From contig JAHWHG010000004.1 in NCBI GenBank assembly GCA_019323515.1, positions 1,859-65,858 of the forward strand: 64,000 nucleotides of DNA. The letters run 5' to 3'. This DNA is from Candidatus Woesearchaeota archaeon. GTDB lineage: Archaea > Nanobdellota > Nanobdellia > Woesearchaeales > JAHWHD01. Below, piece after piece: positions 22,185-48,839 of the stretch. The translations under genes and the position numbers were made by a program. The notes beneath the pieces are model-generated. The model saw only the letters and a program-made list of their open reading frames with translations. It was not told the origin of the DNA and made no database searches. Positions within the stretch are counted from its first letter, which is position 1, and each line of letters opens with the position of its first letter.

Positions 22185-22583
22185 ATGCCACACCAATGCG
22201 TTAGATGTAACACATTCTATAATGATGGTGCATCTGAAATATTGAAAGGTTGCAAGTGCGGAGGCAAATTATTCTTTTTTGTTAAAAAGGAGCAGCTTGA
22301 AAAAGCTAAAGAGATAACCACTAATCTATCTAGAACTGAGAAAAAACAGATAGAGACTGATGTTTATGACTTAATCGGAGATACTATGGATAAGGATGCT
22401 CCAGTTGTTCTTGATTTAGAGTCTATCAGGATACTTAAGCCAGGAAAGTTTGAGATTGATCTTGTGCACCTGTTCCAGAAGGGACAACCGCTAGTCTATA
22501 AACTTGAAGAAGGTAAGTATATGATTGATGTTGCAAGTTCGTTTAAGAAGTTCTTTGATCATGAAGGAGAGGATGAGGATTAG
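22185..22583 (+). CDS. Zn-ribbon protein, DUF2072/OapC-like
   Basis: N-terminal ribbon CVRCNTFYNDGASEILKGCKCGG. The start abuts the stop of the upstream gene. Confidence 0.5.
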   Translation: MPHQCVRCNTFYNDGASEILKGCKCGGKLFFFVKKEQLEKAKEITTNLSRTEKKQIETDVYDLIGDTMDKDAPVVLDLESIRILKPGKFEIDLVHLFQKGQPLVYKLEEGKYMIDVASSFKKFFDHEGEDED

Positions 22584-24046: not shown

Positions 24047-24220
24047 ATGGCAGGAAATAGAAGTAAATTGCAGTATCCTAACAAAAAGCAGTTTATGATT
24101 ACTATTCCTAAGTCTCTTGTTGCTGCCAAAGGTTGGAAGCAGGGAGATGAGCTTGAGTTTGTTCTTGATTCTAAAGGTAATATCGTGATGAAGAAAGTGA
24201 AGGTGAAGAAGAATGGATAA
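24047..24220 (+). CDS. AbrB/SpoVT (MazE-like) swapped-hairpin DNA-binding protein, 57 aa
   Basis: Not in the ORF track (<60 aa). Sequence: MAGNRSKLQYPNKKQFMITIPKSLVAAKGWKQGDELEFVLDSKGNIVMKKVKVKKNG. The segment ITIPKSLV..GWKQGDELEF is the AbrB-type motif. SD AAGGAG lies at 24039-24044, and the gene overlaps the next one by 8 nt. Confidence 0.7.
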   Translation: MAGNRSKLQYPNKKQFMITIPKSLVAAKGWKQGDELEFVLDSKGNIVMKKVKVKKNG

Positions 24221-25157
24221 GAAAGCACAGATAACTATATTCATAATTATAGGGATTTTGATAGTTTTACTTGGAGTGTTTGTATATATTTTTACAAGGA
24301 CTCCTGAGGTTCAGATAGAAGCAAATGTTGATGGAGTCAGAAGTTTTGTTGAGGGATGTATTCAGAACAGGTTAGAGAGAGGGATTGATTTAGTGTCAAT
24401 GCAAGGAGGAAGCATTTATCCTGTTGATTATATTGAGACTGAAGAAGGAGTAGTAGGGTTGGCTTATGATAGTAGAGATGTGTTTGTTTCAATTGAAGAG
24501 ATTGAGGTAGAGTTAAGCGCGTTTGTTACTAGCACTTTAGGTTCGTGTATCCAGAACTTTTCGTTGTTTGAGGAGCAGGGTTTAGATATTGAAGAGGGTG
24601 AGGCGTTTGCACGTGCAAGAGTTCTTCCTCAGGTTGTGAGGGTTGATGTTGAATATCCTTTGAAGATAGTTGATGGCGGGGTTGTTGAGTTAAATGAGTT
24701 TACAGTTAGTAAAGAATCTAGGGTTGCTGAAGCGCATACTGTGATAAAAAGTATTGTTGAGAATACTAAAGAGGATTGGATTGATCTTGCGTTTTTATCT
24801 TCACTTGGAGATGTTACAGTTCTGCCAGTGAGTTCAACTGAGCAGTTGTATTCAGTTAATTATGATGATTACAGTTTTGTTGCAGGGTTTAGATTTAGTG
24901 AGAACCTTGGTCCTGTGATTGATGCTGAGGAGAGGTATCAGTTAGTAGATGGGCAGTTGTTTACTCTTGATTTAGATGTGAGCGATCCTGAAGGCGATTC
25001 ACTTGAGTGTACAGATGACACGCATCTGTTTGATATCAGTTCAGATTGTAGGATTGAGTTTACTCCAGAAGTTCCTGGTGAGTATGAAGTATTGATAACT
25101 GCTAAGGACAGTCACAGGAATTCGGTAAGTAAAACAATTGTGTTTGAGGTAGCATGA
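24213..25157 (+). CDS. secreted/pilin-like protein with class III (type IV pilin-like) signal peptide and C-terminal Ig/cadherin-like domain
   Basis: MDKKAQITIFIIIGILIVLLGVF has the KKAQ plus hydrophobic stretch pattern of archaeal prepilin signals. The C-terminus DLDVSDPEGDSLECTDD...FTPEVPGEYEVLITAKDSHRNSVSKTIVFEV is like He_PIG/cadherin Ig domains. It is ATGA-coupled to the giant ORF. Confidence 0.6.
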   Translation: MDKKAQITIFIIIGILIVLLGVFVYIFTRTPEVQIEANVDGVRSFVEGCIQNRLERGIDLVSMQGGSIYPVDYIETEEGVVGLAYDSRDVFVSIEEIEVELSAFVTSTLGSCIQNFSLFEEQGLDIEEGEAFARARVLPQVVRVDVEYPLKIVDGGVVELNEFTVSKESRVAEAHTVIKSIVENTKEDWIDLAFLSSLGDVTVLPVSSTEQLYSVNYDDYSFVAGFRFSENLGPVIDAEERYQLVDGQLFTLDLDVSDPEGDSLECTDDTHLFDISSDCRIEFTPEVPGEYEVLITAKDSHRNSVSKTIVFEVA

Positions 25158-28100
25158 ATAGGTTTGAAGATATTTGGAAGAGAGGATTTGCAATCTTTGT
25201 AGTGTTAAGCTTAGTCTTAAGTTCAGTCAGTGTTAAAGCTGTGGAACCTGGTGAAGAGGGTTTTGACTGGGAGAAGGCAGACTATGAGAAGATTGATTAT
25301 ACTAAAATTACTGACATAAACAGTATTCCACAACAGTATTATTCTAAAATCCCATGGAGCAAGTTTCCAAAAGAAGTGATTGTTAAATTTAGTGGAGATG
25401 CACGTATCAGAGAACTGGTTAAAGTATTAGAGGTACAGTCAAAGGAAAGTTTGAAGTTACTTACATCAGCACAGGTTAAGAATATTTTAGGAGAGTTCAA
25501 GGACCTTAGTATCCTTAATCATGCGGAGGTTGCAAAAGCGTTGGTTGCTAAGGGTGAGTTTCCGGGTGGTGCTGTCCTTAACTTAGTTCCAGGGGTTGTA
25601 TACAAAGATGGGAAGCTGATTAATCCTAAGTTCCCAAATGGGCTTGGTATCAAGTCGCTTGGAAGTGATGTCACAAGTGTGTCAGCTGTTGTAACAGAGA
25701 TAGGAACTGAAGGGTTTATCATATGTAAAGGTACTAAGTGTAATGAGGTTACTTCAGCAATTGCTGGTGAATTTACCGGGGTGAGCAGGGATAAGGATGG
25801 AAATTTGGTGATTGATACTACTAATGGGCCTGTTAAACTTGATGGAAACATAAGAGCTGTTGTTGATGTTTCTGGGGATGTTGTTTATCTTACTGATGAT
25901 GGAACATTTATACAGCATAAAGGGTTTAGTTTTACAGCTCGCGGAACAACCCAGAAGACTAATTTCAAGTTTAAAGGCAATAAACTTACAATGGAAGGGC
26001 CTGGTGAGGTAAGCAGTGATGGTAATAGGGTTAGTGGTAAGGTTGAGGGAAGCTTTACTGTTGAGATTGGATTGACTGCTGATGAGTTTAAGGTTACTGG
26101 GAATAAGGCTGATATAACTGTATATGGGAAGGACAGGTATACAGGTGATTTTTCAAATGAGTATAAAGAAGGAAAGCTGATGATGTTCAGTCTTGACAGT
26201 TATATGTCATCTGCAAAAATTAGAGGGCATCTTGCGATAACTAATGATGATAATATCAAGAAGGTTTACATCACACAGAATAATCCAAATGCTAAGACAC
26301 TTGAGCAGGTGTGGCATAATGCTGCAGTTATAACTACTTTCAATGAAGAGAAGCTGAATATTGATAAGTTAAAGGATGCGGATGTTAAGAAGTATGTTTC
26401 GGATTCTATTGAGAAGAATAAAGCTAAGATTGAAGCTTTGAAGGCTGCTAAAGAGAAAGCTAAGACTGATTATGAGAAAAGCCAGATTCAAAGCAAGATT
26501 GATTATCTTGAGGTTTATGTGAAAGACCTTGAAGGGATTACTACAAAAGCTGCTTTAATGGGTGTTGTTGATAATACTATCAGCAGATTAGAGGCAGATA
26601 ATGCAAGGATATGGAAGACGCATCCTAATACAGGGTACCTTGAGGTTGTTAATTCTGATGTTAATCTGTATGGTGATAAGAAGTCTACTGATTCAATACC
26701 TGGAAGGTTAGTTATACTTCCAGGAAAGTCGAGTTATGGTGTTAGTGAATTGGATAGCAGGAGCATGAGCGGTGAGCAGGCCAATGTATACTCAATCTAT
26801 AGTCCGCCGGAGTATTCAGATGCGTCTGGTAAAGACCTGAAAAAGAGAGGAATAATGTATTGTGCTAGTGGCAGTACTGGTATAACAGGTGACATGTGCA
26901 GTGCAAGAGCAAAGACTTCTGTGGGATTAGTTGAAATCATGTCTGGGAGGGATAGTAGCGGTAATGGATATAGCAGGGTTTCAAGGAATTCTGCTGTGAA
27001 GAATAATGTTGATGATGCTGGGTTGATTGTTGTAGGACCTACATCCAAGGATGCAAGGACTAGCATGATTAAGCTTGATGCTGACGGGATACATGCAATT
27101 GATAGTTTGGTTGGTGAGGGCAAAAGCAGGGTCTATACAAATCCCACGATTATTGATAAGATTGCTGAGAATTATAAGAAAGTAAGGGATATTGCTTTAG
27201 GTGTTCTTAGAGCAGCTGGACTTTTGAGAGAGGATGAGAAGGTAAGTGAAGAGGCGAGGAAGAAAGCGCAGGAATTAAAGCAGAGATTAGCTGCGACGTT
27301 TGTTGAGGAGTTTAAGGATATAAGGGAGTTTGTTGCTGGTGAGTTGAGTGAGCTTGAAAAGAGAATGCCAGGTGTAACACAAAAGTTGATTGATCTTAAC
27401 ACATATAAAGTTGAGCAGAATGAACAGGGGTTGCTTTCTATGTTAGCTGCTGAGAAGGATGAGCAGATGAAGGACAGGATAAGGGCGAGTATACTTGATG
27501 TCTATAAAGCTCAGGGTGAGACTGGTAAAGAGGAGGCTTGGTTAAAGACATGGGAACAGCAGGCTCCTAATAGTAAGTGGTTGGCTACAATTAAAAGTCA
27601 AAGAGCGCAGCAGCAGACATTAAGAGTAGATTATAGTAAGATGACTAATGCAGAGCTTGAGGCATTGGCTGAGACAAAACCTACAGTTGCATTGTATCAA
27701 GAGTTGACTAACAGGTATCTTAAAGATAAGGATTATGCTAATGCGCAGAAGTATGCTGATTTAGCTAGGACAGAGGTTACTCTTGGTTTGGAGAGGGCTG
27801 AGTTTAATCTAGAGAAAGCAGGTTACAGTGATCTGTTTGACATGACTGACAGGATGACTACAGTGTATCAAACACTAGCTGATGTTAGTCTTGCGAATAA
27901 GGATAATCTTCTTGCTGAGGATGCGTCGAGGTTTAACCTGGCTATTAATAAAAGGAATTATAGAGCAGCACAGACATTAAGCGCTGCGTTGATTGCACAG
28001 GATAAGTTAAAGGATAATGTTGCTGCTTGGGAGAGTTATAGTAATGAGAATAAAGATGCAAGCAGACTATATGATAGAGCTGGAGTAAATCTGATTGATG

Positions 28101-31100
28101 CTTATACTAGGATTAAAGCATATGATAAAGTCGAAGAAAAGTATTTAGATATAGAAGTAACTAAAAATACTGATATTAAAAAAGAAGCTGATGTTGCATA
28201 TGTAAGATCATTGAATGTGCAGAGTAGTGAGTTGTTGAAGGATAAGAAATATGATGATGCATTAGCAAAAGCAAAGAGAGCTTTACAAGTTGATAAGAAT
28301 GATAAATTCTCTTTAAGTGTGATGTCATCAGTTGCTAGTTCTTATTATAGCAGTAAACGTTATGATGATTCAATTGCTCTTTTAGAGGATTTGAAGAACA
28401 GGAAAGGAAGTTTAACTGAATCTGAGAAAGTAACTCTTGCTGGAGCATATCATGGGAAAGGTAATATTGCAAAAGCTAAAGGGTTGTATGGAGAAGTTAA
28501 AGATGCATTTGAGAAGAAAGGTGTAGCAAAGTTATCTAATACAGATAAGTTTTCATATGCACAGGCACTTGATGGGCTTGGAGAGAGTGACAAAAGTTAT
28601 GAAGTATGGAAGCAATTATCACAGATAACTCCTGCTAATGATAATGAAAAGAATCTTAAGAGTATTGCGCAGAATGTTGTTAGTCAGATTGATACTACAA
28701 GAGGGTTCCAGGCAGCGCTAAAAGGGATCACTGAGAAACAGGAGACTGTGCAGGCTTATGATAAGGTTGTTGATGGCTTGAGTTCTAAGGATGCGCTAAG
28801 GTTAGCTAATAGTATTGCTGGGAAAGCAGACAAGTTTACAAAAGAAGCAGATGCAAAAGCTTTCTTAAAGAAAGTTGGACAAAGTAATTTCCAAGTTGCT
28901 GAGGCAAGGGCGATTAGTAGGGAGGGTCTGGACTTAGTTAAGCAAGGATTGCAACAAGTAAAAGAAGGTAAAGATGTTTCTCAAGCATTAGCAACATATA
29001 ATGGAGGATTGGATACGTTACTTAAGGCAACTATATCTCCAGATAAGAGAAAAGAATCTGGTGGCAAACTGGATAACCTAAGAGAAAAGATTCAAATTTT
29101 AAAAAGGCAGATTGCCGATGCAAAGGAGAGCAGAGACAAAGCTCCAAGCGGTTGGTTTGGCACTAAGACTAAAGAATATGAAACTTACAATTCATTATAT
29201 GAAGCTAGATTGAAGGATTTAGATGCGGCACAAAAGGAATATTTGAAATTAAGACAACAAATTCTTTCAGGTGCAAACCTTGCTGATAAGAGAGAATTAA
29301 TTAAGTTACAAGAGGATTTGCTTAGTGAACTTAGAGGCCAGAAAGCTCAAGGTTATTTAGGGTCTGCAGAAACAGTAAGACAATTAGAAGAGACAACTGA
29401 CCAATTTATTGCAGAAGTAGCAGGACAATATGGTTTCTTATTAGAAAGGTATGATCAACAATCAAGTGGATTGTGGACATTGATAGTTAGTGAGAAAGAA
29501 AAACTAAGGGATAGAAGTTATAACACATATCTAAAACAGGGTTATACTGCTGAACAGGCAAAAGATATGGCTGAAAAACAGGCCCAGGATTATGTTAATG
29601 TTCGGATGAAAAATATTGGTTTAGAAAATGCGGATTTGTTTCAAAAAGATTTACTTGATGCAAAAACAAAAAGGCAACAATTAAGTTTAGAAACAGATAA
29701 CCAAAGAAGGGAAGCTGCTGCTGCACATGCTGCAGGAGGGTGGAAAATTGGACAATATGTAATTGTCTCCAATAGAAATATTGATATTGTTAAAAATTGG
29801 TGGGCTTCAGATGGAGTTTTAACTGATTATACTAAAAAGGCAGAGGTTGGCTTCTTAGGGAATTTTGGATATAAGGTAGCAAATGGGGTAAGTAAAACAG
29901 TGGGTCTATTTTTAGAAGTGGGTCTGCCTGTTGCAATTGGTAGCTTGGTAGCAAATGTAAAAGACGGCGTCTTATTAGCTTCAGGAAGTGCAACAACCAA
30001 TGAACAGACAATACAAGAAAAGAATAAAGCAGTAGCAAAAAACCAACAAATAATACAAGGATTACAGTATCTAAGCAAAATTACACAAGAAACTTCTAGC
30101 GCAGATATGGAAGCACTTGCTAGAGCTGTGAAATCAAAGTCGACAACAGGATTGACTGACTCTCAGAAAAAGCTTTATGAGAAATATTTTACTGGAACTG
30201 AAGGTACGAAGGCAAAAGAATCAGTATTATTAGCTGTGACTGATAATAGATTAAACAACCAGGATTTTGGGCCGGGAGGAGTTTTAGAGTATGCATCTGG
30301 TGTCAATGATTTAACACCGGAAGAGATTGCAAAAAGACAGGCACTTCTAGCCAATGCGCAGAAGACTGAGTACTTCAAGGATGCAAGAAACAAATTATTG
30401 GCAGGATGGGGCTTGGATGAAAAAGGGGATTATTTTGCTGATAGTAAGGGGAATTATTTATCTCTTGAAGCTGGAGGAAGACTTCTTGGAAGATTAATAA
30501 ATCCAAAAGAGACGCTGACGCAGGTAACACATTTAGCATGGGCTAATGAAAACCTTGCAGGGGTATTAAATTTCTTCGGGACAAGTTCAAATGAATACGA
30601 AAAATTAAAGTATCTTAATAGAAAAGGATCTGAACTTGCGAAAACAACCCAAATGGTAAAGTTGCTTGAAGAAGGGAAATTCAAGGATTTGAGTGCGATA
30701 TATAATAATGAAGGCGATGTATTATCTCCAGAACAACATAAAGAGTACAGACAACTAATTGATTTAGATGTAAACTTAAGAACTGCGAGATTAGTGGAAA
30801 AGTATGGGAGTTATGACAAGATTCCACAATCAGAGATTCAAGCCATTAATAGACTTAAGGTTGCAGACGAAGTTGGGAGGTATAATTGGGAAGCTGCAAA
30901 GGGATATGCTCAACTTACCCAAGATCCTAATTTAGTGTCACAGGTCCAGGATACTCAGACTTATCAACAAACTCTGAATAGAATGGGTGAGACTGCCGGA
31001 TTCTTTGCAAATATGGCAATATTTGGTGCAGCAACTAGAGGACTTTCGTCACTTGGTGGAAAGATTCTTTCTTCTGAACCTGCAAAGACACTAGGTAGGA

Positions 31101-38248: not shown

Positions 38249-38892
38249 GAGATTACTCTACGTTCTATGTTAAGCGCAATAGGAACTTCATAGTCAATCA
38301 ATAACTTATGACCAAATGCTTGGAATTTTCTTCTGCCATACATAAAACTTGACATCACATCTTTTCTAAACATTGGTTTTGCTTCTTGAGGTGTCCAGAT
38401 TTGTATCTTGCTTATTCTTCTTTTGATATCAGCGTCAACTGGCAAGCTTTCTATAGCTGAATCTGAGGTTATATCACAGAGGCAGCTTTCATCTGATAAG
38501 ATTTGTTTAAGGTCAACCCAGGAAGAAATTTTGTTAAGGTTAGATGCCTGAAGGTCCAGGTAGGAGATATACTTAAAGAGTTCATTATGGTCACAACCAG
38601 GGTTATATTCCATAAGTTTTGTGTGAAGTTTTTGTATGTAATACTGATATACTGGAAGCTCTCCTGTCTTTTCACAGTAGAGGTCATAAGACAGAATCAC
38701 TTTACTTTCAGGTTCTCCACCAAAGATAACCCTTTCCATTGTTTCACTTAGAACTTCACGGTTCTTTGGGCCTGTGAATGCTTCAATCTTGATGTTTTTA
38801 ACAAAGAACTCTAAGTTATGAATCTTCTTATAGTTCATGATTGAAGCTTTCAAGTCTTCTGCAATTAGTTTAGCCCTTTCAACAATCCCCAT
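38245..38892 (-). CDS. hypothetical protein
   Basis: 215-aa ORF convergent with the giant gene, with a 4-nt stop overlap. No motif recognised. Confidence 0.5.
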   Translation of the reverse strand: MGIVERAKLIAEDLKASIMNYKKIHNLEFFVKNIKIEAFTGPKNREVLSETMERVIFGGEPESKVILSYDLYCEKTGELPVYQYYIQKLHTKLMEYNPGCDHNELFKYISYLDLQASNLNKISSWVDLKQILSDESCLCDITSDSAIESLPVDADIKRRISKIQIWTPQEAKPMFRKDVMSSFMYGRRKFQAFGHKLLIDYEVPIALNIERRVIS

Positions 38893-39087
38893 AATTTGTT
38901 GTAAGAGGAAAAGTAATATAAAGATTATTGATTTGGTTTATTTTATTAATTTATATTTAATTTTTCTCTATAGATATTTTTATATACTCTAATAATATCT
39001 TAATGTATTAATAGATATTCTTATTTTTCTTTATTTCTGCTTTTTTTACCAAAAGATATATAAATAGTATTACATTTTATCTATCTT

Positions 39088-39534
39088 ATGCAAGATTTGA
39101 GTAAGAAAGAGGCAGAAGCATTATTCCAGGAGTTTGTGGAATTTTTGAAAAAGAAGAAGATTTCTGTAAAGGGGTTAGGTGAGTATGCTATTCCCATCTC
39201 TATATTTTCCAAGAAGTTAAGCGCTACAGAAGCTGTTGTCAAGTACTTGCGTGAAGAGCATGAGCTAGGTTACAATAAGATTGCAAAGCTGCTGCATAAG
39301 AATCCTGGGCCTGTTGGTGTAACTTACAGGAATGCTAAAAAAAAGTTTAGAGGAAAGTTAAGTGTTGATTCTGATCATTTTATTCCAATAAATAAGTTTG
39401 ACGGAAAGAATACTGTATTTGAGGTTGTTGTTAAGTTTATGAAAGAGGAGTTAAAGTTTAGTTTCAAAAAAATTGCTAAGTTGATGGGAAGGAATTACAG
39501 GACTGTATGGACTGTGTATAGGAGGGCTGCATGA
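39088..39534 (+). CDS. small DNA-binding protein with two tandem HTH-like repeats
   Basis: Internal duplication: ...LSATEAVVKYLREEHELGYNKIAKLLHKNPGPVGVTYRNAKKKF versus ...TVFEVVVKFMKEELKFSFKKIAKLMGRNYRTVWTVYRRA, a sigma-r4/LuxR-like HTH pattern. The stop overlaps the ATG of the 2387-aa ORF (ATGA). Confidence 0.6.
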   Translation: MQDLSKKEAEALFQEFVEFLKKKKISVKGLGEYAIPISIFSKKLSATEAVVKYLREEHELGYNKIAKLLHKNPGPVGVTYRNAKKKFRGKLSVDSDHFIPINKFDGKNTVFEVVVKFMKEELKFSFKKIAKLMGRNYRTVWTVYRRAA

Positions 39535-42500: not shown

Positions 42501-45500
42501 ACTACGCCTGCTTTTGAAAAAATGCCTTCAACTCCTTTGGGGTTTGAACCTTTAGATGTTAGTGATGTCGAACAACCAACAGCTGAGTTTAGAGATAAGA
42601 TATGGGGTGGAGATACATTAGCTATCCCTATAACTTCACCAACTGAATATAGGAAAAATTTAGCTGCGCCTTTAGTTACAGATTCTGAGAATCTTGCTGA
42701 GGGTGGACTGCAGTATAAACCAGGAGATAAAATTACACTTGTAAGATACATAAGAGTTGATAAAGCAACAGCTGAAGCTATCAAAGGTTCTAAGAGAGTC
42801 CTATCACAGGAGGTTGCAAAACAGCAAGGTGATATAAGTAAAGCTGAGGAAGAGTTTAATGCATTAACTGGTAAGGATCTAACATTAGAATCATTGCTGC
42901 AACATACATGGGATATTGGGAGAAGAGGTAATCTTGGAATATCAACAACATATGATCCAGGGATATTATTAGCAGATTCTACAACTGATGACTGCTGCAT
43001 AGTGAAGTATACAATAGAAGTTCCAGCTGAGAGGGTTGTCAAAGTTGGCGGGACTGTTGAGAATCCAGTATTCCCTGCAGGGTTTGACCTTAGAAGAGGT
43101 GATGTGAAGAACTTTGGTTTTGTTAATCCTTCTAACTATGAATCAGAGATTACTTTCTTGTATGAAGTTCCAAATGAGTATGTAAGTAGGATTGATGTTA
43201 TTGAGGATAGTCCTCAGAGTTTAGTTAATATGATTGAGAGTGATGCTTTTGTCACAGAGCATAAACTGCAGCAGATAAAAAAATCTTCATTGTTCAGCTC
43301 TCAACAAAAATCTGAACTAGAGAGTATCCAGGATCCTGTTGAGAGGTTAATGAGAGCAAGGGAGATGTTATTGGGAAGGGCTGAAGTACCTGCAGACCTT
43401 GAAGAAAGAGTTAACCAGAGATTAGAAAGATATGGCCAGCCAGTCACTGAAACAGTGAGGCAGAATGAACTGCAGCAGGAACAGATGATTGACGAGATTG
43501 CCAAAGAGATAGAAAGTTTATGTGAAGGGATATGCGGGAAGCCGATAATAATCGAAGGCGGAGCAGGTCTGTCAACAGATTATCTGCCAGGAGTAAGTGA
43601 TAGGGATATTTCAATATTTGTTGACGGCTTGACATTGGAACAGAAAGCAAATCTTGATAACATAATAAACAGGCTTAGATTAAAGTATCCTGGTGAACAG
43701 GTTAGTTTCTTCATATATAATACTGATTTACTTAAAGGAGGAACTGAGCAAACAATTGCAAGTTCTGAAGAGCCTTATCCTTTAGCAAGAAACTGGATAT
43801 GGGCAAACACGTTCAGGACAGCTAGAGTTTTGTACGGGCAAGCTGAGTTTGACAGGATTGCTGCTGCACCTTTATCAGAGTTAAGCCAGAAGGTTCCTCT
43901 GAATGCTGAGGACGGAGAGAGTTATAGAATTGGGATGACTGAGAGTTTTATTGAGAAGTTAAAGGCTTACAGAGAGCAAGGACTGCAAGTGGATCTGCAT
44001 AAGACAGCTAAGGCAGGGTTAAGGGCTGTTCTTGGGAGAGTTATGAGAGATAATTTTGATGTTGTTAAAGGTGCTTTAGGTGCTCCTGATGCTTCTACTA
44101 AGTCTGAGACTAATTTTATCCTTGATGTTGCAAGGAATTCTGGACTTTTCAATGAACAGGAGATGGATTTAATTAGAAAGATGGCTGACCTGAGATTAAA
44201 TCCACAGAGAGGGATTACAAATGCTGAGGTAGATGTTTTAGAGGATTTTGTGTTTAAGCAGGCTTTAGTCACAGAAAGACCAACTATTGAAGTAACACAA
44301 GACATAAAAGATTTCTGGGCTAATGCAGATGAAAATCAATTCAGAGCTAACTGGCAAGACCTTCCAGCTGATGCAATGGAGGAAGCAATCAAGAATCCTG
44401 AGAGGAGGGTTGATATTTTATTGGAGTATTATCCTGCAAGCCAGATTATGATGGGAGGGACTGTTGCGCCTTCACAATCTTTAGCTGATCAACAGTTCTC
44501 GGAACAGGTAGAGCACATAATCGAAGCTGCAACTAGGAGTAGCCGGATTAATGATATCCATGTGCATCTAAGTCAAGCATTGCCTGTGGAGATGTTAAAG
44601 GATATTATGGATGTGGTTCTGCAAGGAGATGAGTGGAGTCAAAATGAAAAAGACGAAGCAGTTAAGAAATTTGCTGCATATTTAGGTAGGCAGTGGAAGT
44701 CTGCATATGAAGAGATATGGTTTGGTAGCATTCAGCAGCAATCTGAGGAGATTCAGAGGAGATTGGAGAATATTCTACAATCTCTTTCTAAACTAGAACA
44801 GGGTTATGATCAAAGTGTGTGGAATAATTTTTGGACTGAAATTCAGCTTCTATTACCCTTGTTAGATTTATCATCTATGGAAAATTATCAACAAAGGAAC
44901 GACGAAATGGTAAATCGGTTATATATTGCAGCAAATGACCAATTCAAAGCAGGAACAAAAAATATAGCAGGGGATATTATCCCAAGGATAGCATCAAGAG
45001 CCAAGGGTTATTTTGAAATTAGGCATGCTATTCAAGGAACAGACCCGAAAGATTTAGATAATATGCTAAAAAGATTCTCTGATGCTGATATTTCAGAAGA
45101 TGAAGCGGGCTTTATCCTGTCATTCACAAGGCGTAGTATTGGCAGCTTAAAGGGAAAGAGCATACCATTGGTTTCAATAATGGCAAGACTTGAGTCGCTT
45201 GATCAGATTAGCGCTTTACTAGAGCAAGTTACATCGAAGAATGATTTAATGGGAATTTACAGAGTACTTTCATATGCGCAGAGGGATAGTGATACAGAAA
45301 AAGCGATTGAGCAGATGACGGATGACTCCCAGGAGATTGAAAGGCTTAAAGGGATGATAAGAAACAAACAAATAAATCGGATAGAGAACAATCAAGCTAG
45401 TAAGAAAAAGATTAATGATTTTTTGGAACGTTTCAATAAATATTTTGTAGGAATTGATATCACTGGTCATGAGGAATTTCCTTTTGCAGGCTATGATGGT

Positions 45501-46694
45501 GTTTATGATATTAGCCAAGATTTAGATGTGTTAGAAGCTTTAGAAAACAATGATAAAATTGGAACAACTGTACATGCAGGTGAAAACTTCAGAAGAAGAA
45601 GTATTGAAAGTGCAATAAGGCAAGTATATCAAGTAGCTGAACATGCAGATAGAATTGGACATGGATTGGCAGCAGTTGTTGATTTGGAAAGTATTGTAGA
45701 ATCCGATCAAGAAATCGAAGATAAGCTTATTGATCCAAAGGAGATAGTAGAAACCAGCACATCTGGAATAACAAGTTTCTCTGTTGAAAATATATTTGAA
45801 AGCGGTCATAGGTTTGAGAGTTTGGACCAAAGATTGAAACAGCTTGAATTTGAAAAATCGCACATTAATGAAATGAATCATTATTATTCAAATGAAGGTG
45901 TTCAACAATTAAATACTGAAGATATAGATAATGAGATTGTTGTACTGAACAAGATTATTGAAGCTTCAAAAAGAATCACATCTGATGATATTACTGATGA
46001 ATCAAGACGGATGAAAGATGAAGTGAAGCAAGCTCTTTCAGGAAGGGAAGAACTAATGCCACTGATTGATAAAATTATGGGAGAGCCTCCTACTTTTAAA
46101 ATACAGAGAATAAGTAAAGATGGTATTATCACAAGGTCGTTGTTGCTGAAGCGTCCATATATTACCGAAGATAACGAACTAGATATCGATGCAAAGAAAA
46201 GGATAGATGCTCTGCAAAAGATGACAATAGATAAGATGATTGAGAACGAGGTTGTACTTGAACTAAACCCTTCTTCAAATGATGAGATACATAAAGTGGG
46301 TTGGTTGCATTATGGGAGATTATTTACATACACATATTCAGGTACCAAGCCAGAATTTCAGGGAAAAAAATTAAGAGTTACAATTAATACTGATACTGAG
46401 GCAACTTTAGAAAGTACAATTGAAGATGAACATCGCGAAGTATTGAGAAATCTCTTAAGATCATATGATTCTAGAATAGATAAGTTAAGAGCAGAATTGG
46501 CGCAAACAAAAGATGGTAGTGAAAGACAACTCGCTATTAGACATGAAATTGTAATGTTGGAAAATCAACAGGACATAATTGCATCGGCTCTTAGAGATGA
46601 ACCAGAAGCCATCATAGATTTCATAATGCCATCCTCTTCAGCAATAGCATTAAGTCCTGCAAAAAGGGGTATGATAGAATCAGCTACATCTTAA
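39531..46694 (+). CDS. giant (2387 aa) secreted multidomain protein: signal peptide, HEAT (PBS-lyase type) repeats, JAB-like HxH motif, minimal nucleotidyltransferase motif, adenosine/AMP-deaminase-family domain
   Basis: Signal VISVLLIFVLLLSSVSADC. More than 10 HEAT_PBS repeats (DPDIRWQAARSLGDIGDERAIPKLIEKLSD...) span about 39990-41280. WHQHATGD...GPSGSTEGGAD lies at about 41965-42040. GGAGLSTDYLPGVSDRDISIFV (43552-43620) fits a pol-beta NTase. The ADA motifs are DIHVHL (44553-44570), TVHAGE (45567-45584), DRIGHG (45648-45665), LELNPSSN (46258-46281) and INTDTE (46382-46399). Confidence 0.85.
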   Translation: MKKVISVLLIFVLLLSSVSADCLTPLGKERLVEQKTPELVEQGLSKEQADTLLRSVVEGQKELPATELTYQQKIDEVQGLIDREEFDAAVARLNEYGISIPRFDTSTGEALDTPEKQARGALRLEAEKRRPIVEKQVDEAIEKLASSSTSTRIEGSNALKSIGKEAVPKLIEALDNDNPDIRWQAARSLGDIGDERAIPKLIEKLSDKDTTLQSNVIVALGRLKAYDAVYALNKIAFDKYKASYLRRNAITALGEIVGPRADEVNKKLGDTIGVLTKALTDKDPQIREAAAKASGLIGNADPLQISRLIGLQQDKNEYVRDSASEALSRIREKMISNMNSDDAKVRRASIDIIEVFNDPTLVPVLIDALNDADSNVVTYAMKALAKYKDNRAVLPLIDKLDKGNDFERSVAARTLGQIGGAQAVPALSNALRDADAFVRREAANALGLIRDKSASSSLIEALTDTDVDVRANVVEALGRVFYDSQDQTVSEALVQSLSDSDARIRRMSAEALGRIGDTEIVPGLIEARNDNEASVQDAALKALALLGNQDAINEFIQDLKSDSSEKRINAINILEETGKGINEILNSEALFEDENTQRYAVIAVMRNGNANDLIRLMNIIKSTTNPKTKANLIEAMTGSTISQADRILGLDNFEQLPPLFKEFLKKGEIQGEEMGLVIGNLPSVATEGIERSSLESRIEQELSGLSFTSRTAGDRSFEDDTFTGQKHKLSSSDLIKILQIVHSLKNPNFRNSIGKNIVYDLEHYGSELGGLAFINEDGELELEDFAPKCRGDNCAYVSSETRRLKANEAFFDWHQHATGDANPERYVGPSGSTEGGADLGVARRDRHDGVVIAYLGGNKFNLHFYTPEGYVVNLGNYEWDSDNVGVIDIDAIRAYYEVAQRGYDKNPAAASEITSRSELSRKQQADYLKAVVDRNVDEEGLRKEMENDGIPNAADVARAVFTAEAPSKAEEAALAQESPLRDLVGDNLPITTPAFEKMPSTPLGFEPLDVSDVEQPTAEFRDKIWGGDTLAIPITSPTEYRKNLAAPLVTDSENLAEGGLQYKPGDKITLVRYIRVDKATAEAIKGSKRVLSQEVAKQQGDISKAEEEFNALTGKDLTLESLLQHTWDIGRRGNLGISTTYDPGILLADSTTDDCCIVKYTIEVPAERVVKVGGTVENPVFPAGFDLRRGDVKNFGFVNPSNYESEITFLYEVPNEYVSRIDVIEDSPQSLVNMIESDAFVTEHKLQQIKKSSLFSSQQKSELESIQDPVERLMRAREMLLGRAEVPADLEERVNQRLERYGQPVTETVRQNELQQEQMIDEIAKEIESLCEGICGKPIIIEGGAGLSTDYLPGVSDRDISIFVDGLTLEQKANLDNIINRLRLKYPGEQVSFFIYNTDLLKGGTEQTIASSEEPYPLARNWIWANTFRTARVLYGQAEFDRIAAAPLSELSQKVPLNAEDGESYRIGMTESFIEKLKAYREQGLQVDLHKTAKAGLRAVLGRVMRDNFDVVKGALGAPDASTKSETNFILDVARNSGLFNEQEMDLIRKMADLRLNPQRGITNAEVDVLEDFVFKQALVTERPTIEVTQDIKDFWANADENQFRANWQDLPADAMEEAIKNPERRVDILLEYYPASQIMMGGTVAPSQSLADQQFSEQVEHIIEAATRSSRINDIHVHLSQALPVEMLKDIMDVVLQGDEWSQNEKDEAVKKFAAYLGRQWKSAYEEIWFGSIQQQSEEIQRRLENILQSLSKLEQGYDQSVWNNFWTEIQLLLPLLDLSSMENYQQRNDEMVNRLYIAANDQFKAGTKNIAGDIIPRIASRAKGYFEIRHAIQGTDPKDLDNMLKRFSDADISEDEAGFILSFTRRSIGSLKGKSIPLVSIMARLESLDQISALLEQVTSKNDLMGIYRVLSYAQRDSDTEKAIEQMTDDSQEIERLKGMIRNKQINRIENNQASKKKINDFLERFNKYFVGIDITGHEEFPFAGYDGVYDISQDLDVLEALENNDKIGTTVHAGENFRRRSIESAIRQVYQVAEHADRIGHGLAAVVDLESIVESDQEIEDKLIDPKEIVETSTSGITSFSVENIFESGHRFESLDQRLKQLEFEKSHINEMNHYYSNEGVQQLNTEDIDNEIVVLNKIIEASKRITSDDITDESRRMKDEVKQALSGREELMPLIDKIMGEPPTFKIQRISKDGIITRSLLLKRPYITEDNELDIDAKKRIDALQKMTIDKMIENEVVLELNPSSNDEIHKVGWLHYGRLFTYTYSGTKPEFQGKKLRVTINTDTEATLESTIEDEHREVLRNLLRSYDSRIDKLRAELAQTKDGSERQLAIRHEIVMLENQQDIIASALRDEPEAIIDFIMPSSSAIALSPAKRGMIESATS

Positions 46695-47139
46695 TAACAT
46701 ACTTCTTAATCCTTGGGTCATCCTTTGATACATATCTTGGTTCTGCTTGTAATGCCCAACTTGTAAAAACTGAGTTATGTACACCCCTATGCGTAATCCA
46801 ATACTTTGCGAATGTTTCAGGGCTATGGTCACAATAAGAATTAATTATATTATTCTCGTGGCTATTTGTATACTCTTTTATTAATGCCTCCAAATCAGGT
46901 TCTATTAATTGTTCTGATTCAAATAGAACATGTTCACAGGCAACATTAACAACCCTATCGCCTGATTCTGATTTATCATATCTACAGAAGCCTCCATTAA
47001 TCTTTAGTTTATGATATTGGCCTGCAAATTTTCCCTCATGATAGATAATCAATATATTTTTCTGTTTAGAACTATATTGTTTAACATATTCCCAACCTTC
47101 TTGTTTTCTTGGCACTAGCTTTGCCCAGATATCTTCCAT
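46684..47139 (-). CDS. hypothetical protein
   Basis: 151-aa ORF convergent with the giant gene, with an 11-nt overlap. No motif recognised. Confidence 0.5.
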   Translation of the reverse strand: MEDIWAKLVPRKQEGWEYVKQYSSKQKNILIIYHEGKFAGQYHKLKINGGFCRYDKSESGDRVVNVACEHVLFESEQLIEPDLEALIKEYTNSHENNIINSYCDHSPETFAKYWITHRGVHNSVFTSWALQAEPRYVSKDDPRIKKYVIKM

Positions 47140-48805: not shown

Positions 48806-48839
48806 AGCTTTTAAATGAGCGATTTTCTGGTTTCTGTAT

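What the first reader, a model, noticed from the sequence alone, without database searches (positions are those of the whole stretch)
24047..47139. 23-kb locus: two giant secreted multi-enzyme proteins, each with an upstream small DNA-binding gene - candidate undescribed system
Seen in sequence: an AbrB-like ORF (24047-24220) is followed by a pilin-signal/Ig-like ORF (24213-25157) and then a 4364-aa ORF (25154-38248). All three are joined by overlapping stop/start codons. After a convergent 215-aa ORF and a 195-bp AT-rich gap come a tandem-HTH ORF (39088-39534) and a 2387-aa ORF (39531-46694), again ATGA-coupled.

Both giants start with signal-peptide-like N-termini, carry kilobases of scaffold (coiled coil/TPR, HEAT) and contain enzymatic modules. 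The first has GGDEF-like palm motifs plus two Hanks kinases. The second has a JAB-like HxH motif, a pol-beta-type nucleotidyltransferase motif and a full adenosine-deaminase motif set.

Inference: nucleotide-synthesising modules placed next to a nucleotide deaminase and kinases recall signalling-based immune systems (CBASS, RADAR, type III CRISPR-Cad1). The architecture matches none of those that I know: there is no ATPase, CD-NTase or CARF, and there are secretion signals. The alternative is a surface or host-contact effector apparatus of an episymbiotic small-genome archaeon.
Basis: partly seen in the sequence, partly recalled or inferred. Interest (0 to 1): 0.85.

Follow-up and report, generated by a model that had tools for sequence, protein, structure and literature searches.

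The report
Two giant secreted archaeal mosaic proteins
A tiny-genome Woesearchaeota (DPANN) archaeon has two neighbouring operons, each encoding a huge signal-peptide protein studded with enzyme modules; the small DNA-binding gene before the second belongs to a lineage-wide family that nearly always sits directly upstream of such giants, so this looks like regulated host-contact machinery, not an immune system.

Summary
The gene layout is real and exactly as described. HMMs confirm the AbrB-like protein, two Hanks kinases, a partial GGDEF-like motif present twice, a long HEAT array and an adenosine-deaminase (ADA) domain with a complete catalytic motif set. The JAB and pol-beta nucleotidyltransferase calls remain motif-only.

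The organism is a Candidatus Woesearchaeota MAG. Two related genomes carry the same arrangement at the same chromosomal position: G1-type giant, convergent 215-aa-family gene, tandem-HTH gene, then a second signal-peptide protein. The second protein is swapped between genomes (NTase-like plus ADA here, HEAT-only or a double kinase elsewhere). A fixed nucleotide-synthase/deaminase "system" is therefore not conserved.

What is conserved is the HTH family, with 422 homologs. In 13 of 14 loci inspected, its gene overlaps or abuts the next gene, which encodes a signal/TM-bearing protein; 10 of these are at least 717 aa. A TATTACAT motif is about 43-fold enriched upstream of these HTH genes.

PADLOC finds no defence system. 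Best reading: HTH-regulated, fast-evolving giant extracytoplasmic mosaic proteins of an episymbiont. These are archaeal counterparts of Omnitrophota "archaeovorins" and nanohaloarchaeal giant proteins. It is a new variant of a known kind, and the HTH-giant coupling appears undescribed.

The parts
24047..24220 (+). AbrB/SpoVT-type (MazE-fold) small DNA-binding protein, 57 aa. It is the first gene of operon 1. A Shine-Dalgarno-like AAGGAG lies 5 nt upstream.
   Evidence: Pfam PF04014 at 2.9e-8, 34 bits against a cutoff of 24.7. NCBIfam AbrB domain at 6.6e-5. Sequence. No toxin partner is adjacent.
24213..25157 (+). 314-aa protein with an N-terminal class-III (prepilin-type) signal-like segment, MDKKA|QITIFIIIGILIVLLGV, and a weak Ig-like C-terminus. 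It overlaps AbrB by 8 nt and G1 by 4 nt.
   Evidence: Hydropathy peak of 3.25 at aa 9-27. Big_9, Filamin and PPC hits at 0.003-0.01, all below cutoff. No homolog in the related loci.
25154..38248 (+). Giant G1, 4364 aa. In order: Sec-type signal (aa 1-30); beta-rich N-terminal region; helical/TPR-like region; a marginal hydrophobic segment at aa 1582-1600; a charged helical (coiled-coil-like) stretch at aa ~2270-2945; the conserved module; two kinases.
33989..36430 (+). Conserved module of G1 (aa 2946-3759). It holds an invariant AHELGEI motif (aa 3067) and two GGDEF-like palm motifs: IATIDVMDFKNQINTRYGHIVGD at aa 3188-3231 (34715-34846) and IDINNFGKTNQRYG at aa 3493-3531 (35630-35746). An invariant GGDE (aa 3479) lies 19 residues before the second motif, which is not the canonical position.
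   Evidence: 44-47% identical over about 810 aa to L002 giant A and the L004 giant, and 37% to L003/L012. Pfam GGDEF scores 30.5 bits here and 33-35 bits in the homologs. The profile hits only diguanylate cyclases in the PDB, best E 4.5e-4, over the beta1-alpha1 region only.
36440..38131 (+). Two Hanks-type Ser/Thr kinase domains of G1 (aa 3763-4021 and 4053-4326). The first has intact VAVK, HRDIKPGN and DFG motifs. The second has HRDLNPNN, with the catalytic-loop Lys replaced by Asn.
   Evidence: Pfam Pkinase 1.2e-88 in 2 stretches. Motif positions.
38245..38892 (-). Convergent 215-aa cytoplasmic protein of unknown function. It overlaps the G1 stop by 4 nt. It belongs to a family found at the same position after G1-type giants in L002 and L004.
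   Evidence: BLASTP 1.5e-19 to the L002 235-aa ORF, 7.9e-21 to the L004 235-aa ORF and 1.5e-10 to the L004 240-aa ORF. No Pfam or PDB-profile hit.
38893..39087 (.). AT-rich promoter region of operon 2. It contains TATAAATAGTATTACA at 39059-39074: a TATA box followed by the TATTACAT element, 14-29 nt before the ATG.
   Evidence: The 16-mer is unique in the window. It is identical or nearly identical upstream of HTH genes in L002, L004 and L009. TATTACAT is about 43-fold enriched upstream of HTH genes. This held in 2 of 3 held-out loci.
39088..39534 (+). 148-aa protein made of two tandem sigma-70-region-4/LuxR-type HTH repeats. Its ATGA overlaps the G2 start.
   Evidence: Pfam Sigma70_r4_2 at 3e-6. 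Internal repeat seen. 58-64% identical to three orthologs located in front of giants. The family has 422 members.
39531..46694 (+). Giant G2, 2387 aa. In order: Sec-type signal (aa 1-22, ...SSVSA|DC); HEAT array (aa ~140-600; 39948-41330); an unassigned region containing a JAB-like HQH motif (aa 814; ~41838-42170); the NTase-like module (aa 1292-1557; 43404-44201; motif at 43545-43619); the ADA-superfamily domain.
44523..46490 (+). Long-insert adenosine-deaminase-superfamily domain of G2 (aa ~1665-2320). Motifs are HVH1677, HAGE2015, GHG2043 and NTD2286. An insertion of about 200 aa lies between GHG and NPSSN, at the same place as in RADAR RdrB.
   Evidence: Pfam A_deaminase 32.9 bits against a cutoff of 27. 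PADLOC CARF_ADA at 4.6e-7. The exhaustive search finds only 10 remote ADA relatives, all inside 600-7365-aa multidomain proteins. The profile of G2 plus these relatives best matches RdrB 8fnw at 2.6e-27, against 3.5e-12 for canonical ADA.
46684..47139 (-). Convergent 151-aa ORF overlapping the G2 3' end by 11 nt. Whether it belongs to the locus is uncertain.
   Evidence: Called as a gene on independent contigs. No Pfam hit. No homolog in the related loci. The next gene, 47172-48110(-), is RNase Z and is housekeeping.

Best explanation
The locus is a vertically inherited, fast-evolving chromosomal region of a Candidatus Woesearchaeota (DPANN) archaeon. It consists of two operons, each built around a giant extracytoplasmic mosaic protein.

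Operon 1 is AbrB regulator, then a pilin-like protein, then G1. Operon 2 is the tandem-HTH protein, then G2.

Shown:
- The HTH protein belongs to a Woesearchaeota/Nanoarchaeota-wide family.
- Its gene is almost always translationally coupled to the gene of a large protein carrying an N-terminal signal or membrane anchor.
- The domain content of that downstream protein is freely exchanged between genomes.
- The HTH genes share a promoter-proximal TATTACAT element.

Inferred:
- The HTH protein binds this element and (auto)regulates transcription of its giant-gene operon.
- The giants are exported through Sec and stay at the cell surface or at the contact site with a host cell.
- Their long HEAT, TPR and coiled-coil parts act as reach and scaffold.
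- The enzyme modules are Hanks kinases, an atypical GGDEF-like pair, an NTase-like module and an RdrB-like adenosine/ATP deaminase. All need nucleotide substrates, so they most likely act in or on the partner cell: effector-like manipulation, or purine scavenging by an auxotrophic episymbiont.
- G1 and G2 need not act on a common small-molecule signal.
For: Organism and context:
- Archaeal housekeeping genes surround the locus.
- G2 and the HTH protein are NCBI proteins of a Candidatus Woesearchaeota MAG on a 209,714-bp contig.

Conserved synteny:
- L002 reads HTH - giant A (45% identical to G1 aa 2946-3759, plus kinases) - convergent 235-aa homolog of the 215-aa gene - metallophosphatase - HTH - HEAT giant B.
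- L004 reads 5053-aa giant (44-47% identical to G1 aa 2951-4024) - 235-aa homolog - metallophosphatase - 240-aa paralog - HTH - 1026-aa signal-bearing double kinase. It is followed by genes collinear with, and 46-56% identical to, window 48470-52681.

HTH family:
- 422 homologs.
- In 13 the next gene overlaps or abuts (-11 to +1 nt).
- 10 of those next genes encode at least 717 aa (up to 6811 aa).
- All 11 downstream proteins tested have an N-terminal hydrophobic segment.
- The binomial probability against a background of about 6% long genes is 5e-10.
- Downstream domain content varies: kinases, Laminin_G_3, HEAT, PQQ or none.

TATTACAT element:
- 4.55 per kb upstream of HTH genes, against 0.105 per kb overall and 0.15 per kb in other AT-rich windows, always on the coding strand.
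- Confirmed in held-out loci L013 and L015.

Extracytoplasmic prediction:
- Signal-type N-termini in G1, G2, GA, GB and the L004 1026-aa protein.
- No other hydrophobic segment in GA, G2 or the 1026-aa protein. In GA and the 1026-aa protein the kinases come right after the signal.

Enzyme modules.

Precedents:
- Omnitrophota giant proteins are rich in HEAT_2, TPR and GGDEF, have signal peptides and have small class-III-signal genes nearby (10.1101/2023.11.21.568195).
- Nanohaloarchaeal giant proteins carry a Sec signal and are proposed to act on the host (PMC10266531).
- G2's nearest ADA relatives sit in Omnitrophota giants and in a Woesearchaeota protein.
Against: - Localisation rests on hydropathy only. 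No SignalP or DeepTMHMM run was possible and there is no proteomic evidence.
- G1 has a marginal hydrophobic segment at aa 1582-1600 (Kyte-Doolittle 1.85, containing Glu and Pro). If it spans the membrane, the kinases and GGDEF-like pair would be cytoplasmic.
- Activity is unknown for every module. The GGDEF-like domains lack a canonical GG[DE]EF hairpin. Kinase 2 has Lys to Asn in its catalytic loop. The second Asp of the ADA NTDD motif is Thr.
- DNA binding by the HTH protein and its link to TATTACAT are inferred.
- G1 in this genome is preceded by AbrB and a pilin-like gene, not by the HTH gene, so the HTH rule does not cover operon 1.
- A host organism is not known.
- AlphaFold models were unusable (pLDDT 40 and 38).
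Confidence: 0.5

Rival explanations
1. G1 is a giant transmembrane receptor. The signal peptide exports about 1550 aa of sensor (beta-rich plus TPR). The segment at aa 1582-1600 spans the membrane. The remaining 2760 aa (coiled-coil stalk, GGDEF-like pair, two kinases) are cytoplasmic and relay surface or host contact into phosphorylation and nucleotide signalling. G2 is a separate surface scaffold.
For: - Hydrophobic segment TVGLFLEVGLPVAIGSLVA with Kyte-Doolittle 1.85.
- Kinases and GGDEF-type enzymes need NTPs, which are cytoplasmic (established knowledge).
- Nanohaloarchaeal giants are described with this topology: Sec signal, ectodomain, transmembrane segment, cytoplasmic ATPase (PMC10266531).
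Against: - The segment is marginal, carrying one Glu, one Pro and three Gly.
- It lies in a region that is not conserved in the homologs.
- Giant A of L002 has the same C-terminal module and three kinases but no internal hydrophobic segment. Its first kinase starts about 110 residues after the signal.
- The L004 1026-aa protein is a signal followed by two kinases.
Confidence: 0.2
2. The locus is an intracellular nucleotide-signalling immune system. GGDEF-like or NTase modules would make a signal on infection, and the kinases and ATP deaminase would execute abortive infection, by analogy with CBASS, RADAR and type III CRISPR-Cad1.
For: - The ADA domain is nearest to the RdrB/CARF-ADA type: PADLOC CARF_ADA at 4.6e-7, and the profile best matches RdrB among solved structures.
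- Its remote relatives hit PADLOC RdrB models at up to 9e-34.
- Kinase domains match the PD-T4-6 and MAD6 models.
Against: - No known system is recognised and there is no RdrA ATPase, CARF, CD-NTase or SAVED.
- The kinase matches are generic Pkinase similarity.
- Both giants start with secretion signals.
- The NTase-like plus ADA part is absent from the syntenic loci, where the slot holds unrelated proteins.
- The locus sits among housekeeping genes at a conserved position, not in a defence island.
- The HTH family is absent from viral contigs.
Confidence: 0.06
3. These are two independent surface adhesin or S-layer-like giants that sit side by side because this chromosomal site is a hot spot for such cassettes. 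The enzyme-like modules would be degenerate relics or binding domains, with no enzymatic or cooperative role.
For: - The content of the second slot is exchanged between genomes.
- Most of both giants is scaffold: HEAT, TPR-like and charged helical sequence.
- The GG[DE]EF motif is degenerate and kinase 2 has an altered catalytic loop.
- The other HTH-coupled giants carry adhesin-type domains such as Laminin_G_3 and Big_13.
Against: - The G1 module keeps many invariant polar residues across proteins 37-47% identical, including D, DFK, N, GH, GD and GGDE. This divergence matches that of the neighbouring housekeeping proteins, at 46-56%, which indicates purifying selection.
- Kinase 1 and the ADA domain keep complete catalytic motif sets.
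- Tandem giants with an HTH gene before the second one recur in five loci.
Confidence: 0.2

Closest known systems
Omnitrophota giant proteins ('archaeovorins'; West-Roberts et al., bioRxiv 10.1101/2023.11.21.568195)
   Same: - Very long ORFs in an ultra-small, host-dependent lineage.
- N-terminal signal peptides.
- Long scaffolds interspersed with many unrelated enzyme domains; HEAT_2, TPR and GGDEF are among the most frequent domains.
- Small genes with class III signal peptides nearby.
- G2's closest ADA relatives include Omnitrophota proteins of 1831 and 7365 aa.
   Different: - This locus is archaeal, not bacterial, and the proteins are 2-4 thousand aa rather than more than 10 thousand.
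- There is no sequence homology beyond shared domain types.
- Different enzyme set: Hanks kinases and an ADA, rather than glycosyl hydrolases, peptidases and NUDIX.
- The partner genes are a tandem-HTH and an AbrB gene, rather than type II secretion, pilus and PilZ genes.
Nanohaloarchaeal giant membrane-anchored proteins (SPEARE; Hamm et al. 2019, PMC6642349; reanalysed in PMC10266531)
   Same: - Giant, genome-specific proteins of DPANN episymbionts.
- They carry a Sec signal, a huge ectodomain and enzyme-type modules.
- They are proposed to mediate host contact or effector delivery.
- They are among the few non-syntenic, rapidly changing regions between related genomes.
   Different: - No Ig/fibronectin arrays and no VirB4/TraG ATPase here.
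- No downstream secretion ATPase gene.
- Different phylum.
- The HTH coupling is not reported for those proteins.
RADAR RdrB and CRISPR-associated Cad1 adenosine (ATP) deaminases (PMC9994260, PMC11645235)
   Same: - ADA-superfamily TIM-barrel motif set.
- A large insertion after the GHG strand, as in RdrB.
- The profile containing G2 best matches RdrB structures 8fnw, 8fnv and 8hr7.
- PADLOC CARF_ADA model hit.
   Different: - No RdrA AAA+ ATPase and no CARF domain.
- The domain is the C-terminal part of a 2387-aa signal-peptide protein.
- G2 alone gives no significant hit to RdrB models or structures.
- The second Asp of NTDD is Thr.
Multi-effector secreted toxins such as MARTX and polymorphic toxins (own knowledge, analogy only)
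   Same: One very long secreted polypeptide that combines repeats or scaffold with several unrelated enzymatic effector modules. These modules need cytosolic substrates of a target cell, and module content is shuffled between strains.
   Different: - No RTX repeats, no cysteine-protease autoprocessing domain and no type I secretion genes.
- No demonstrated target cell.
- No homology.
Bacterial ECF sigma / anti-sigma gene pairs (own knowledge, analogy only)
   Same: A small protein with a sigma-70 region-4-type HTH is encoded immediately upstream of, and overlapping, a gene for a membrane or extracytoplasmic protein.
   Different: - The HTH protein has two region-4-like repeats and no region 2, and archaea do not use sigma factors.
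- G2 has no cytoplasmic anti-sigma domain ahead of its signal, only MKK.

Membership tests
Hanks-type Ser/Thr protein kinases (Pfam Pkinase) | Full-length match to the kinase profile, with VAIK Lys, HRD catalytic loop and DFG | tested here: met
   Two domains at 1.2e-88. Kinase 1 has VAVK, HRDIKPGN and DFG. Kinase 2 has VVIK, HRDLNPNN (loop Lys replaced by Asn) and DFG.
GGDEF diguanylate cyclases | Match to the whole GGDEF domain above the curated cutoff | tested here: inconclusive
   30.5 bits against a gathering cutoff of 23.8, but only profile positions 30-72 of 161. The second copy scores 17.6 bits, below cutoff. Homologs score 33-35 bits over the same partial stretch. PDB profile hits are all diguanylate cyclases, best E 4.5e-4, over about 40 residues.
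GGDEF diguanylate cyclases | GG[DE]EF hairpin about 40-50 residues after the DxDxFKxxND motif | tested here: not met
   Copy 1 has no such motif before the ...NFYAGVS strand. Copy 2 has STGREF at that place. An invariant GGDE lies 19 residues before the second D-x-NNFGK motif instead.
Adenosine/AMP deaminase superfamily (Pfam A_deaminase) | Profile match above cutoff plus the metal ligands and catalytic residues (HxH, HAGE, GHG His, NTD Asp) | tested here: met
   32.9 bits against a cutoff of 27. HVH1677, HAGE2015, GHG2043 and NTD2286 are present. The match is partial because of insertions of about 140 and 200 aa.
RADAR (RdrA + RdrB) | RdrB-type deaminase recognised by RdrB models | tested here: inconclusive
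   G2 alone gives no PADLOC RdrB hit and no PDB hit. The profile of G2 plus its 8 remote relatives matches RdrB 8fnw at 2.6e-27, better than any canonical ADA, but the relatives dominate that profile.
RADAR (RdrA + RdrB) | Adjacent RdrA AAA+ ATPase gene | tested here: not met
   No ATPase between 24047 and 47139. The nearest AAA protein is Cdc48 at 61548-63836.
Type III CRISPR Cad1 (CARF-ADA) | CARF sensor domain fused to the deaminase, and a CRISPR-Cas context | tested here: not met
   The PADLOC CARF_ADA model matches only its ADA part, positions 394-479. No CARF or Cas Pfam hits.
CBASS / Pycsar | CD-NTase or Pycsar cyclase, plus an effector with a SAVED, cNMP or TIR-type sensor | tested here: not met
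   No PADLOC or Pfam hit for any of these in the eight locus proteins.
Pol-beta-fold nucleotidyltransferases (NTP_transf_2 / MNT / DUF294) | Profile or structural match to the fold; hG[GS]x9-13DhDh motif plus a third acidic residue | tested here: inconclusive
   The motif IIEGGAGLSTDYLPGVSDRDISIFVD is present and conserved in P0122 and P0123. There is no Pfam hit at E<=1 and no PDB profile hit. hhalign against the DUF294 modules of the L002 and L004 giants gives probability 0.03%. The AlphaFold model is unusable.
JAB/MPN (JAMM) metallopeptidases | Profile match; E...HxHx7Sx2D motif | tested here: not met
   No Pfam hit and no PDB hit. The sequence has HQH followed by Ser and Asp at non-canonical spacing.
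AbrB/SpoVT (MazE-fold) DNA-binding proteins | Swapped-hairpin domain profile match | tested here: met
   PF04014 at 2.9e-8, above cutoff.
Type II toxin-antitoxin (MazEF/VapBC-like) | A toxin gene (PIN, MazF, Doc...) next to the AbrB-fold antitoxin | tested here: not met
   The downstream gene is the 314-aa pilin-like protein. The upstream gene is an Obg-like GTPase on the other strand.
Archaeal type IV pilin-like proteins (class III signal peptide) | [KR][GA]|[QLI] cleavage motif followed by a hydrophobic helix at the extreme N-terminus; a prepilin peptidase in the genome | tested here: inconclusive
   The motif MDKKA|QITIF... and a hydrophobic helix (Kyte-Doolittle 3.25) are present. No predictor (FlaFind, SignalP) is available and no peptidase gene lies in the window.
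Woesearchaeota tandem-HTH family coupled to giant genes (defined here) | About 150-190 aa with two sigma-r4-like HTH repeats and the motifs GPVGVTYRNAKKKF and RNYRTVWT; the next gene overlaps and encodes a large signal/TM protein | tested here: met
   58-64% identity to three orthologs. ATGA overlap with G2, and 13 of 14 family members coupled.
Giant extracytoplasmic mosaic proteins of ultra-small episymbionts (archaeovorin / SPEARE kind; a kind, not a homologous family) | More than 2000 aa, N-terminal export signal, scaffold repeats plus several unrelated enzyme modules, strain-variable content, host-dependent small-genome lineage | tested here: met
   The export signal is predicted only, and host dependence is inferred from the lineage.

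The most novel reading that the evidence does not exclude
Woesearchaeota use a dedicated cassette. It consists of a tandem-HTH autoregulator with its own TATTACAT operator, translationally coupled to an exchangeable giant secreted protein. The cassette lets them deploy and rapidly swap multi-enzyme effectors that work inside or on the host cell. In this genome the payload would include an RdrB-like ATP/adenosine deaminase and Hanks kinases. That would be the first case of an immune-type ATP deaminase used as an exported inter-cellular effector. It would also include an atypical pseudo-dimeric GGDEF-like palm pair with a relocated GGDE motif that may make a non-canonical nucleotide product.
Probability: 0.25. 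Interest if true: 0.75.

Novelty: new variant of a known kind. Interest (0 to 1): 0.55.

Why it matters
How DPANN archaea recognise, attach to and exploit their hosts is largely unknown, and most of them are uncultured.

This locus gives three concrete handles:
- A widespread small HTH family (422 members) marks and probably controls giant surface-protein genes. It could be used to find such genes and their regulons in fragmented MAGs.
- A conserved enzyme module (two atypical GGDEF-like domains plus a kinase) is shared by giants of four genomes. It can be expressed and assayed.
- An RdrB/Cad1-like deaminase is placed behind a secretion signal. If active on ATP, it would link an antiviral enzyme class to inter-cellular antagonism or purine scavenging.

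The work also removes a tempting but unsupported reading, that of a new cyclic-nucleotide immune system.

Tried and rejected
- **Single-sequence PDB searches.** G1 aa 1-3750, G2 aa 601-2387, the G2 ADA region and the G2 JAB-like region gave nothing useful.
- **Word-indexed homolog searches.** G2 aa 601-2387 found only itself. G1 aa 2850-3750 found nothing, not even itself, so G1 is apparently absent from that database.
- **Single-sequence AlphaFold2.** Models of G1 aa 3160-3660 and G2 aa 721-1580 had mean pLDDT 40.1 and 37.6. These results are not used as evidence, and the second model was not searched.
- **NTase-like module.** hhalign against the DUF294/GlnD NTase modules of the L002 and L004 giants gave no relation. 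Its PDB profile search gave noise only.
- **The 215-aa family.** No Pfam or PDB-profile hit.
- **Metagenome scan with the HTH alignment.** The patterns found nothing. The second scan, with the G1 module, returned only the larger contig of the organism already found (L012 = L003).
- **Viral contigs.** No HTH relatives. The ADA alignment was too divergent to scan.
- **Toxin-antitoxin reading of the AbrB gene.** Rejected because there is no toxin partner.
- **Mobile-element reading.** Rejected. Composition is like the flanks, the neighbours are conserved housekeeping genes, and the only integrase is 21 kb away.

Full report
**1. Observation**

- 24047-24220(+), 57 aa.
- 24213-25157(+), 314 aa.
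- 25154-38248(+), 4364 aa, called G1 here.
- 38245-38892(-), 215 aa.
- A 195-nt AT-rich gap.
- 39088-39534(+), 148 aa.
- 39531-46694(+), 2387 aa, called G2 here.
- 46684-47139(-), 151 aa.

The overlaps are 8 nt (ATGGATAA), 4 nt (ATGA) and 4 nt (ATGA). Uninterrupted frames of 13 kb and 7 kb at about 38% G+C cannot be chance. G2 was also found with an identical sequence on six contigs.

**2. Organism and boundaries**

The flanking genes are archaeal housekeeping genes:
- Upstream: ribosomal L10P, Rpo7, an Obg-like GTPase and OapC.
- Downstream: RNase Z (47172-48110), a PHP protein, adenylate kinase, TruD, GatE and Cdc48.

G2 and the HTH protein are NCBI proteins of a Candidatus Woesearchaeota MAG, on a 209,714-bp contig. 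Composition of the locus does not differ from its flanks. The locus therefore spans 24047 to about 47139 in a DPANN chromosome.

**3. Domain claims**

Confirmed by Pfam:
- AbrB/MazE fold in the 57-aa protein (2.9e-8).
- Two Pkinase domains at the G1 C-terminus (1.2e-88).
- A HEAT array in G2 (HEAT_2, 1.5e-65).
- A_deaminase in G2 (32.9 bits against a cutoff of 27).
- Sigma70_r4_2 in the 148-aa protein (3e-6). This protein is an internal duplication of that HTH.

ADA domain:
- It carries the full catalytic set: HVH1677, HAGE2015, GHG2043 and NTD2286.
- Two large insertions stretch it to about 650 aa.

GGDEF:
- The call is half right.
- The first copy is above the Pfam cutoff (30.5 against 23.8) and the second is below it (17.6 bits).
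- Both matches cover only the beta1-alpha1 motif, profile positions 30-72 of 161.

Weaker calls:
- TPR and Ig-like hits are below cutoff.
- Nothing supports the JAB call.
- The pol-beta NTase call has no profile support. Its motif EGG[AS]x7YxPGxSDRDhxhF is nevertheless conserved in the only two homologs of that region, one from a Nanoarchaeia MAG.

Signals:
- N-terminal hydrophobic segments with a preceding Lys/Arg and a small-x-small site are present in G1 and G2.
- The 314-aa protein starts MDKKA|QITIFIIIG..., a class-III-signal-like pattern.
- These are predictions from sequence only.

**4. Related loci**

Word-indexed searches found no relatives of the enzymatic parts. A DNA-level scan of GTDB species representatives with G1 aa 2850-3750 found two relatives.

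*L002 (Nanoarchaeota MAG044)*
- Gene order: a 157-aa HTH gene (64% identical to the window's) abutting giant A; a convergent 235-aa homolog of the window's 215-aa gene (1.5e-19); a metallophosphatase; a second HTH gene (58% identical) overlapping giant B.
- Giant A is 2982 aa: signal, kinase, GT2, kinase, the G1 module at 45% identity, kinase, then a DUF294/GlnD-type NTase.
- Giant B is at least 1688 aa: signal plus HEAT repeats, 31-36% identical to G2 aa 1-608.

*L004 (a JGI contig reached through the HTH family)*
- It shows the same order: 5053-aa giant, 235-aa homolog, metallophosphatase, 240-aa paralog, HTH gene.
- Here the HTH gene is coupled to a 1026-aa protein made of a signal and two kinases.
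- It is followed by genes collinear with, and 46-56% identical to, window 48470-52681.

*L003/L012*
- The G1 module also sits inside an ORF of at least 7287 aa.

Three conclusions follow:
- (a) The two-cassette arrangement is inherited at a fixed chromosomal position.
- (b) The G1 C-terminal module is under constraint. Its identity of 44-47% is similar to that of the neighbouring housekeeping proteins, and it has many invariant polar residues.
- (c) The content of the second giant, including G2's NTase-like and ADA parts, is not conserved.

**5. The HTH family**

A profile of three HTH proteins finds 422 homologs. Wherever a source gives a name, it is Woesearchaeota, Nanoarchaeota or Nanoarchaeia.

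- In 13 of 14, the next gene overlaps or abuts by -11 to +1 nt.
- The following proteins have these lengths in aa: 2387, 2982, >=1688, 1026, 2245, >=281 (contig end), 717, 3416, >=2329, 244, 4532, 290 and 6811.
- All 11 tested have a hydrophobic N-terminal segment (Kyte-Doolittle at least 2.16).
- Their domains differ: kinases, HEAT, Laminin_G_3/Big_13, PQQ or none.
- About 6% of the other called genes in these loci are at least 700 aa (my count). Ten of 14 then has binomial P = 5e-10.
- Five loci show two giants in tandem with the HTH gene before the second.

Upstream motif:
- The upstream regions share TATTACAT, often as TATTACATAATAT.
- It occurs at 4.55 per kb, against 0.105 per kb overall and 0.15 per kb in other AT-rich windows, always on the coding strand.
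- In the window it is part of TATAAATAGTATTACA (39059-39074), which is unique in the 64 kb.
- The motif was derived on 11 regions. It recurred in 2 of 3 held-out loci, and in L013 all three copies in 15.9 kb lie upstream of the HTH gene.

From this I infer that the tandem HTH binds these repeats next to the TATA box and (auto)regulates the operon. This is not shown.

**6. The deaminase**

An exhaustive HMMER search of 1.84 billion representatives with G2 aa 1200-2387 returned only 13 proteins.

- Apart from G2 itself and the two NTase-like relatives, all ten match the ADA blocks.
- They are 600-7365-aa multidomain proteins, fused to RIO/APH-type kinases, MBL plus cNMP-binding domains and others.
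- Several are Omnitrophota giants and one is from Woesearchaeota.
- PADLOC RdrB and CARF_ADA models hit them, at up to 9e-34.
- A profile of G2 plus eight of them best matches RADAR RdrB structures (8fnw, 2.6e-27), against 3.5e-12 for canonical ADAs. The long insertion after GHG lies at the same place.
- G2 alone does not reach RdrB, so membership in an RdrB-like branch is likely but only transitive.
- RdrB and Cad1 convert ATP to ITP (PMC9994260, PMC11645235). Whether G2 does so is untested.

**7. The GGDEF-like pair**

The four-sequence alignment shows two domains with GGDEF-type landmarks: the beta1 Asp, the FK/N motif, and later elements resembling SIGVA and AD..A..AK..GK.

- Neither domain has GG[DE]EF at the canonical place.
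- An invariant GGDE lies 19 residues before the second beta1 motif.
- PDB profile hits are exclusively diguanylate cyclases, but weak (4.5e-4) and short.

The pair may form an intramolecular pseudo-dimer, as in class III cyclases. That is speculation.

**8. Topology and function**

- GA, G2 and the 1026-aa protein have no hydrophobic segment other than the signal. In GA and the 1026-aa protein, kinases follow the signal directly.
- G1 has one marginal segment at aa 1582-1600.
- Taken at face value, NTP-dependent enzymes are exported. That makes sense only if they act in a partner cell's cytoplasm or at a cytoplasmic bridge, or if the N-terminal helix is an anchor with unexpected orientation.
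- This matches what has been proposed for giant proteins of other ultra-small symbionts. Omnitrophota archaeovorins have signal peptides, frequent HEAT_2/TPR/GGDEF domains and neighbouring class-III-signal genes. Nanohaloarchaeal giants have a Sec signal and are proposed to act on the host.
- PADLOC recognises no defence system.

**9. Verdict**

- The anatomy is confirmed and the linkage is real.
- The new element is the conserved cassette of tandem-HTH gene plus giant gene with its own upstream motif. I did not find it described, but my only check was one full-text search combining Pfam's name for this HTH domain (Sigma70_r4) with DPANN, Woesearchaeota, Nanoarchaeota and "large proteins"; none of the 10 top-ranked papers that were listed contains Sigma70_r4.
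- Function of every enzyme module remains inferred. Structure prediction failed for lack of permitted alignments.

Noticed in passing
window 39059-39074; L002, L004, L007, L009, L010, L013, L015 upstream of the HTH genes: TATTACAT (often TATTACATAATAT) recurs 1-3 times within 200 nt upstream of HTH-family genes, about 43-fold above background. It typically flanks the TATA box and sits directly before the ATG. It is a candidate operator or promoter element specific to this gene family.
   Followed up: yes
window 51932-52027 (+): Rfam finds a 96-nt tRNA (55.8 bits) that ARAGORN missed, so it probably contains an intron. It overlaps the mechanically listed TTG start (51953) of the adenylate kinase ORF. 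The real start of that ORF is likely near 52064, where homology begins.
   Followed up: partly
L002 2799-4611 (-): A 327-aa ADP-ribosylglycohydrolase (6.7e-38 to MJ1187; 7e-22 to DraG) lies just upstream of the first HTH-giant cassette of MAG044, next to a 278-aa paralog (32% identical, BLASTP 1.9e-13). The window has no counterpart.
   Followed up: partly
L002 15646-16524 (-); L004 8151-9050 (-): A metallophosphoesterase gene (47% identical between the two loci) lies between the 215-aa-family gene and the second HTH gene. It is absent from the window, where the gap is only 195 nt.
   Followed up: partly
window 37685-37708 (G1 aa 4178-4185): The second kinase has HRDLNPNN in place of HRDLKPxN, so the catalytic-loop Lys is Asn. 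It may be a pseudokinase or use altered chemistry. In the L002 and L004 homologs this position in the architecture is taken by a DUF294/GlnD-type nucleotidyltransferase.
   Followed up: partly
window 39594-39602 (G2 aa 22-24); L002 giants A and B; L004 1026-aa protein: A Cys lies 1-4 residues after the predicted signal cleavage site in four of the HTH-coupled proteins (VSA|DC, VSA|GDMC, VNG|LC, FSS|C). This could be a lipid-anchoring or disulfide site. G1 lacks it.
   Followed up: no
window ~33400-33850 (G1 aa ~2750-2900): Two tandem copies of a ~65-aa unit (…LTAQINELxxKIAEAERxGDFVSxEDQQ…) hit Pfam DUF465 just above cutoff (26 bits, 2 stretches).
   Followed up: no
L012 1-21863 (same organism as L003): A single open frame of at least 7287 aa spans the whole 21.9-kb fetched stretch, with the GGDEF-like module in the middle. 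It is one of the largest archaeal ORFs seen here, and both ends are unseen.
   Followed up: partly
window 2284-3093 (+), 3145-3660 (-), 7-1545 (+): A tyrosine recombinase (XerC/D-like), a separate 171-aa HTH protein (HTH_11/Sigma70_r4 hits; not a detectable member of the giant-coupled family) and an LVIVD beta-propeller protein lie 20 kb upstream.
   Followed up: no
window 22185-22583 (+): An OapC (origin-associated protein) homolog lies 1.5 kb upstream of the locus. Cumulative GC skew rises until about 58 kb and then falls. A replication origin may be nearby.
   Followed up: no
protein database: The word-indexed search with G1 aa 2850-3750 did not return G1 itself, although G2 and the HTH protein from the same contig are present. 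G1 is apparently missing from, or split in, the public annotation, so giant proteins may be under-represented in such searches.
   Followed up: no
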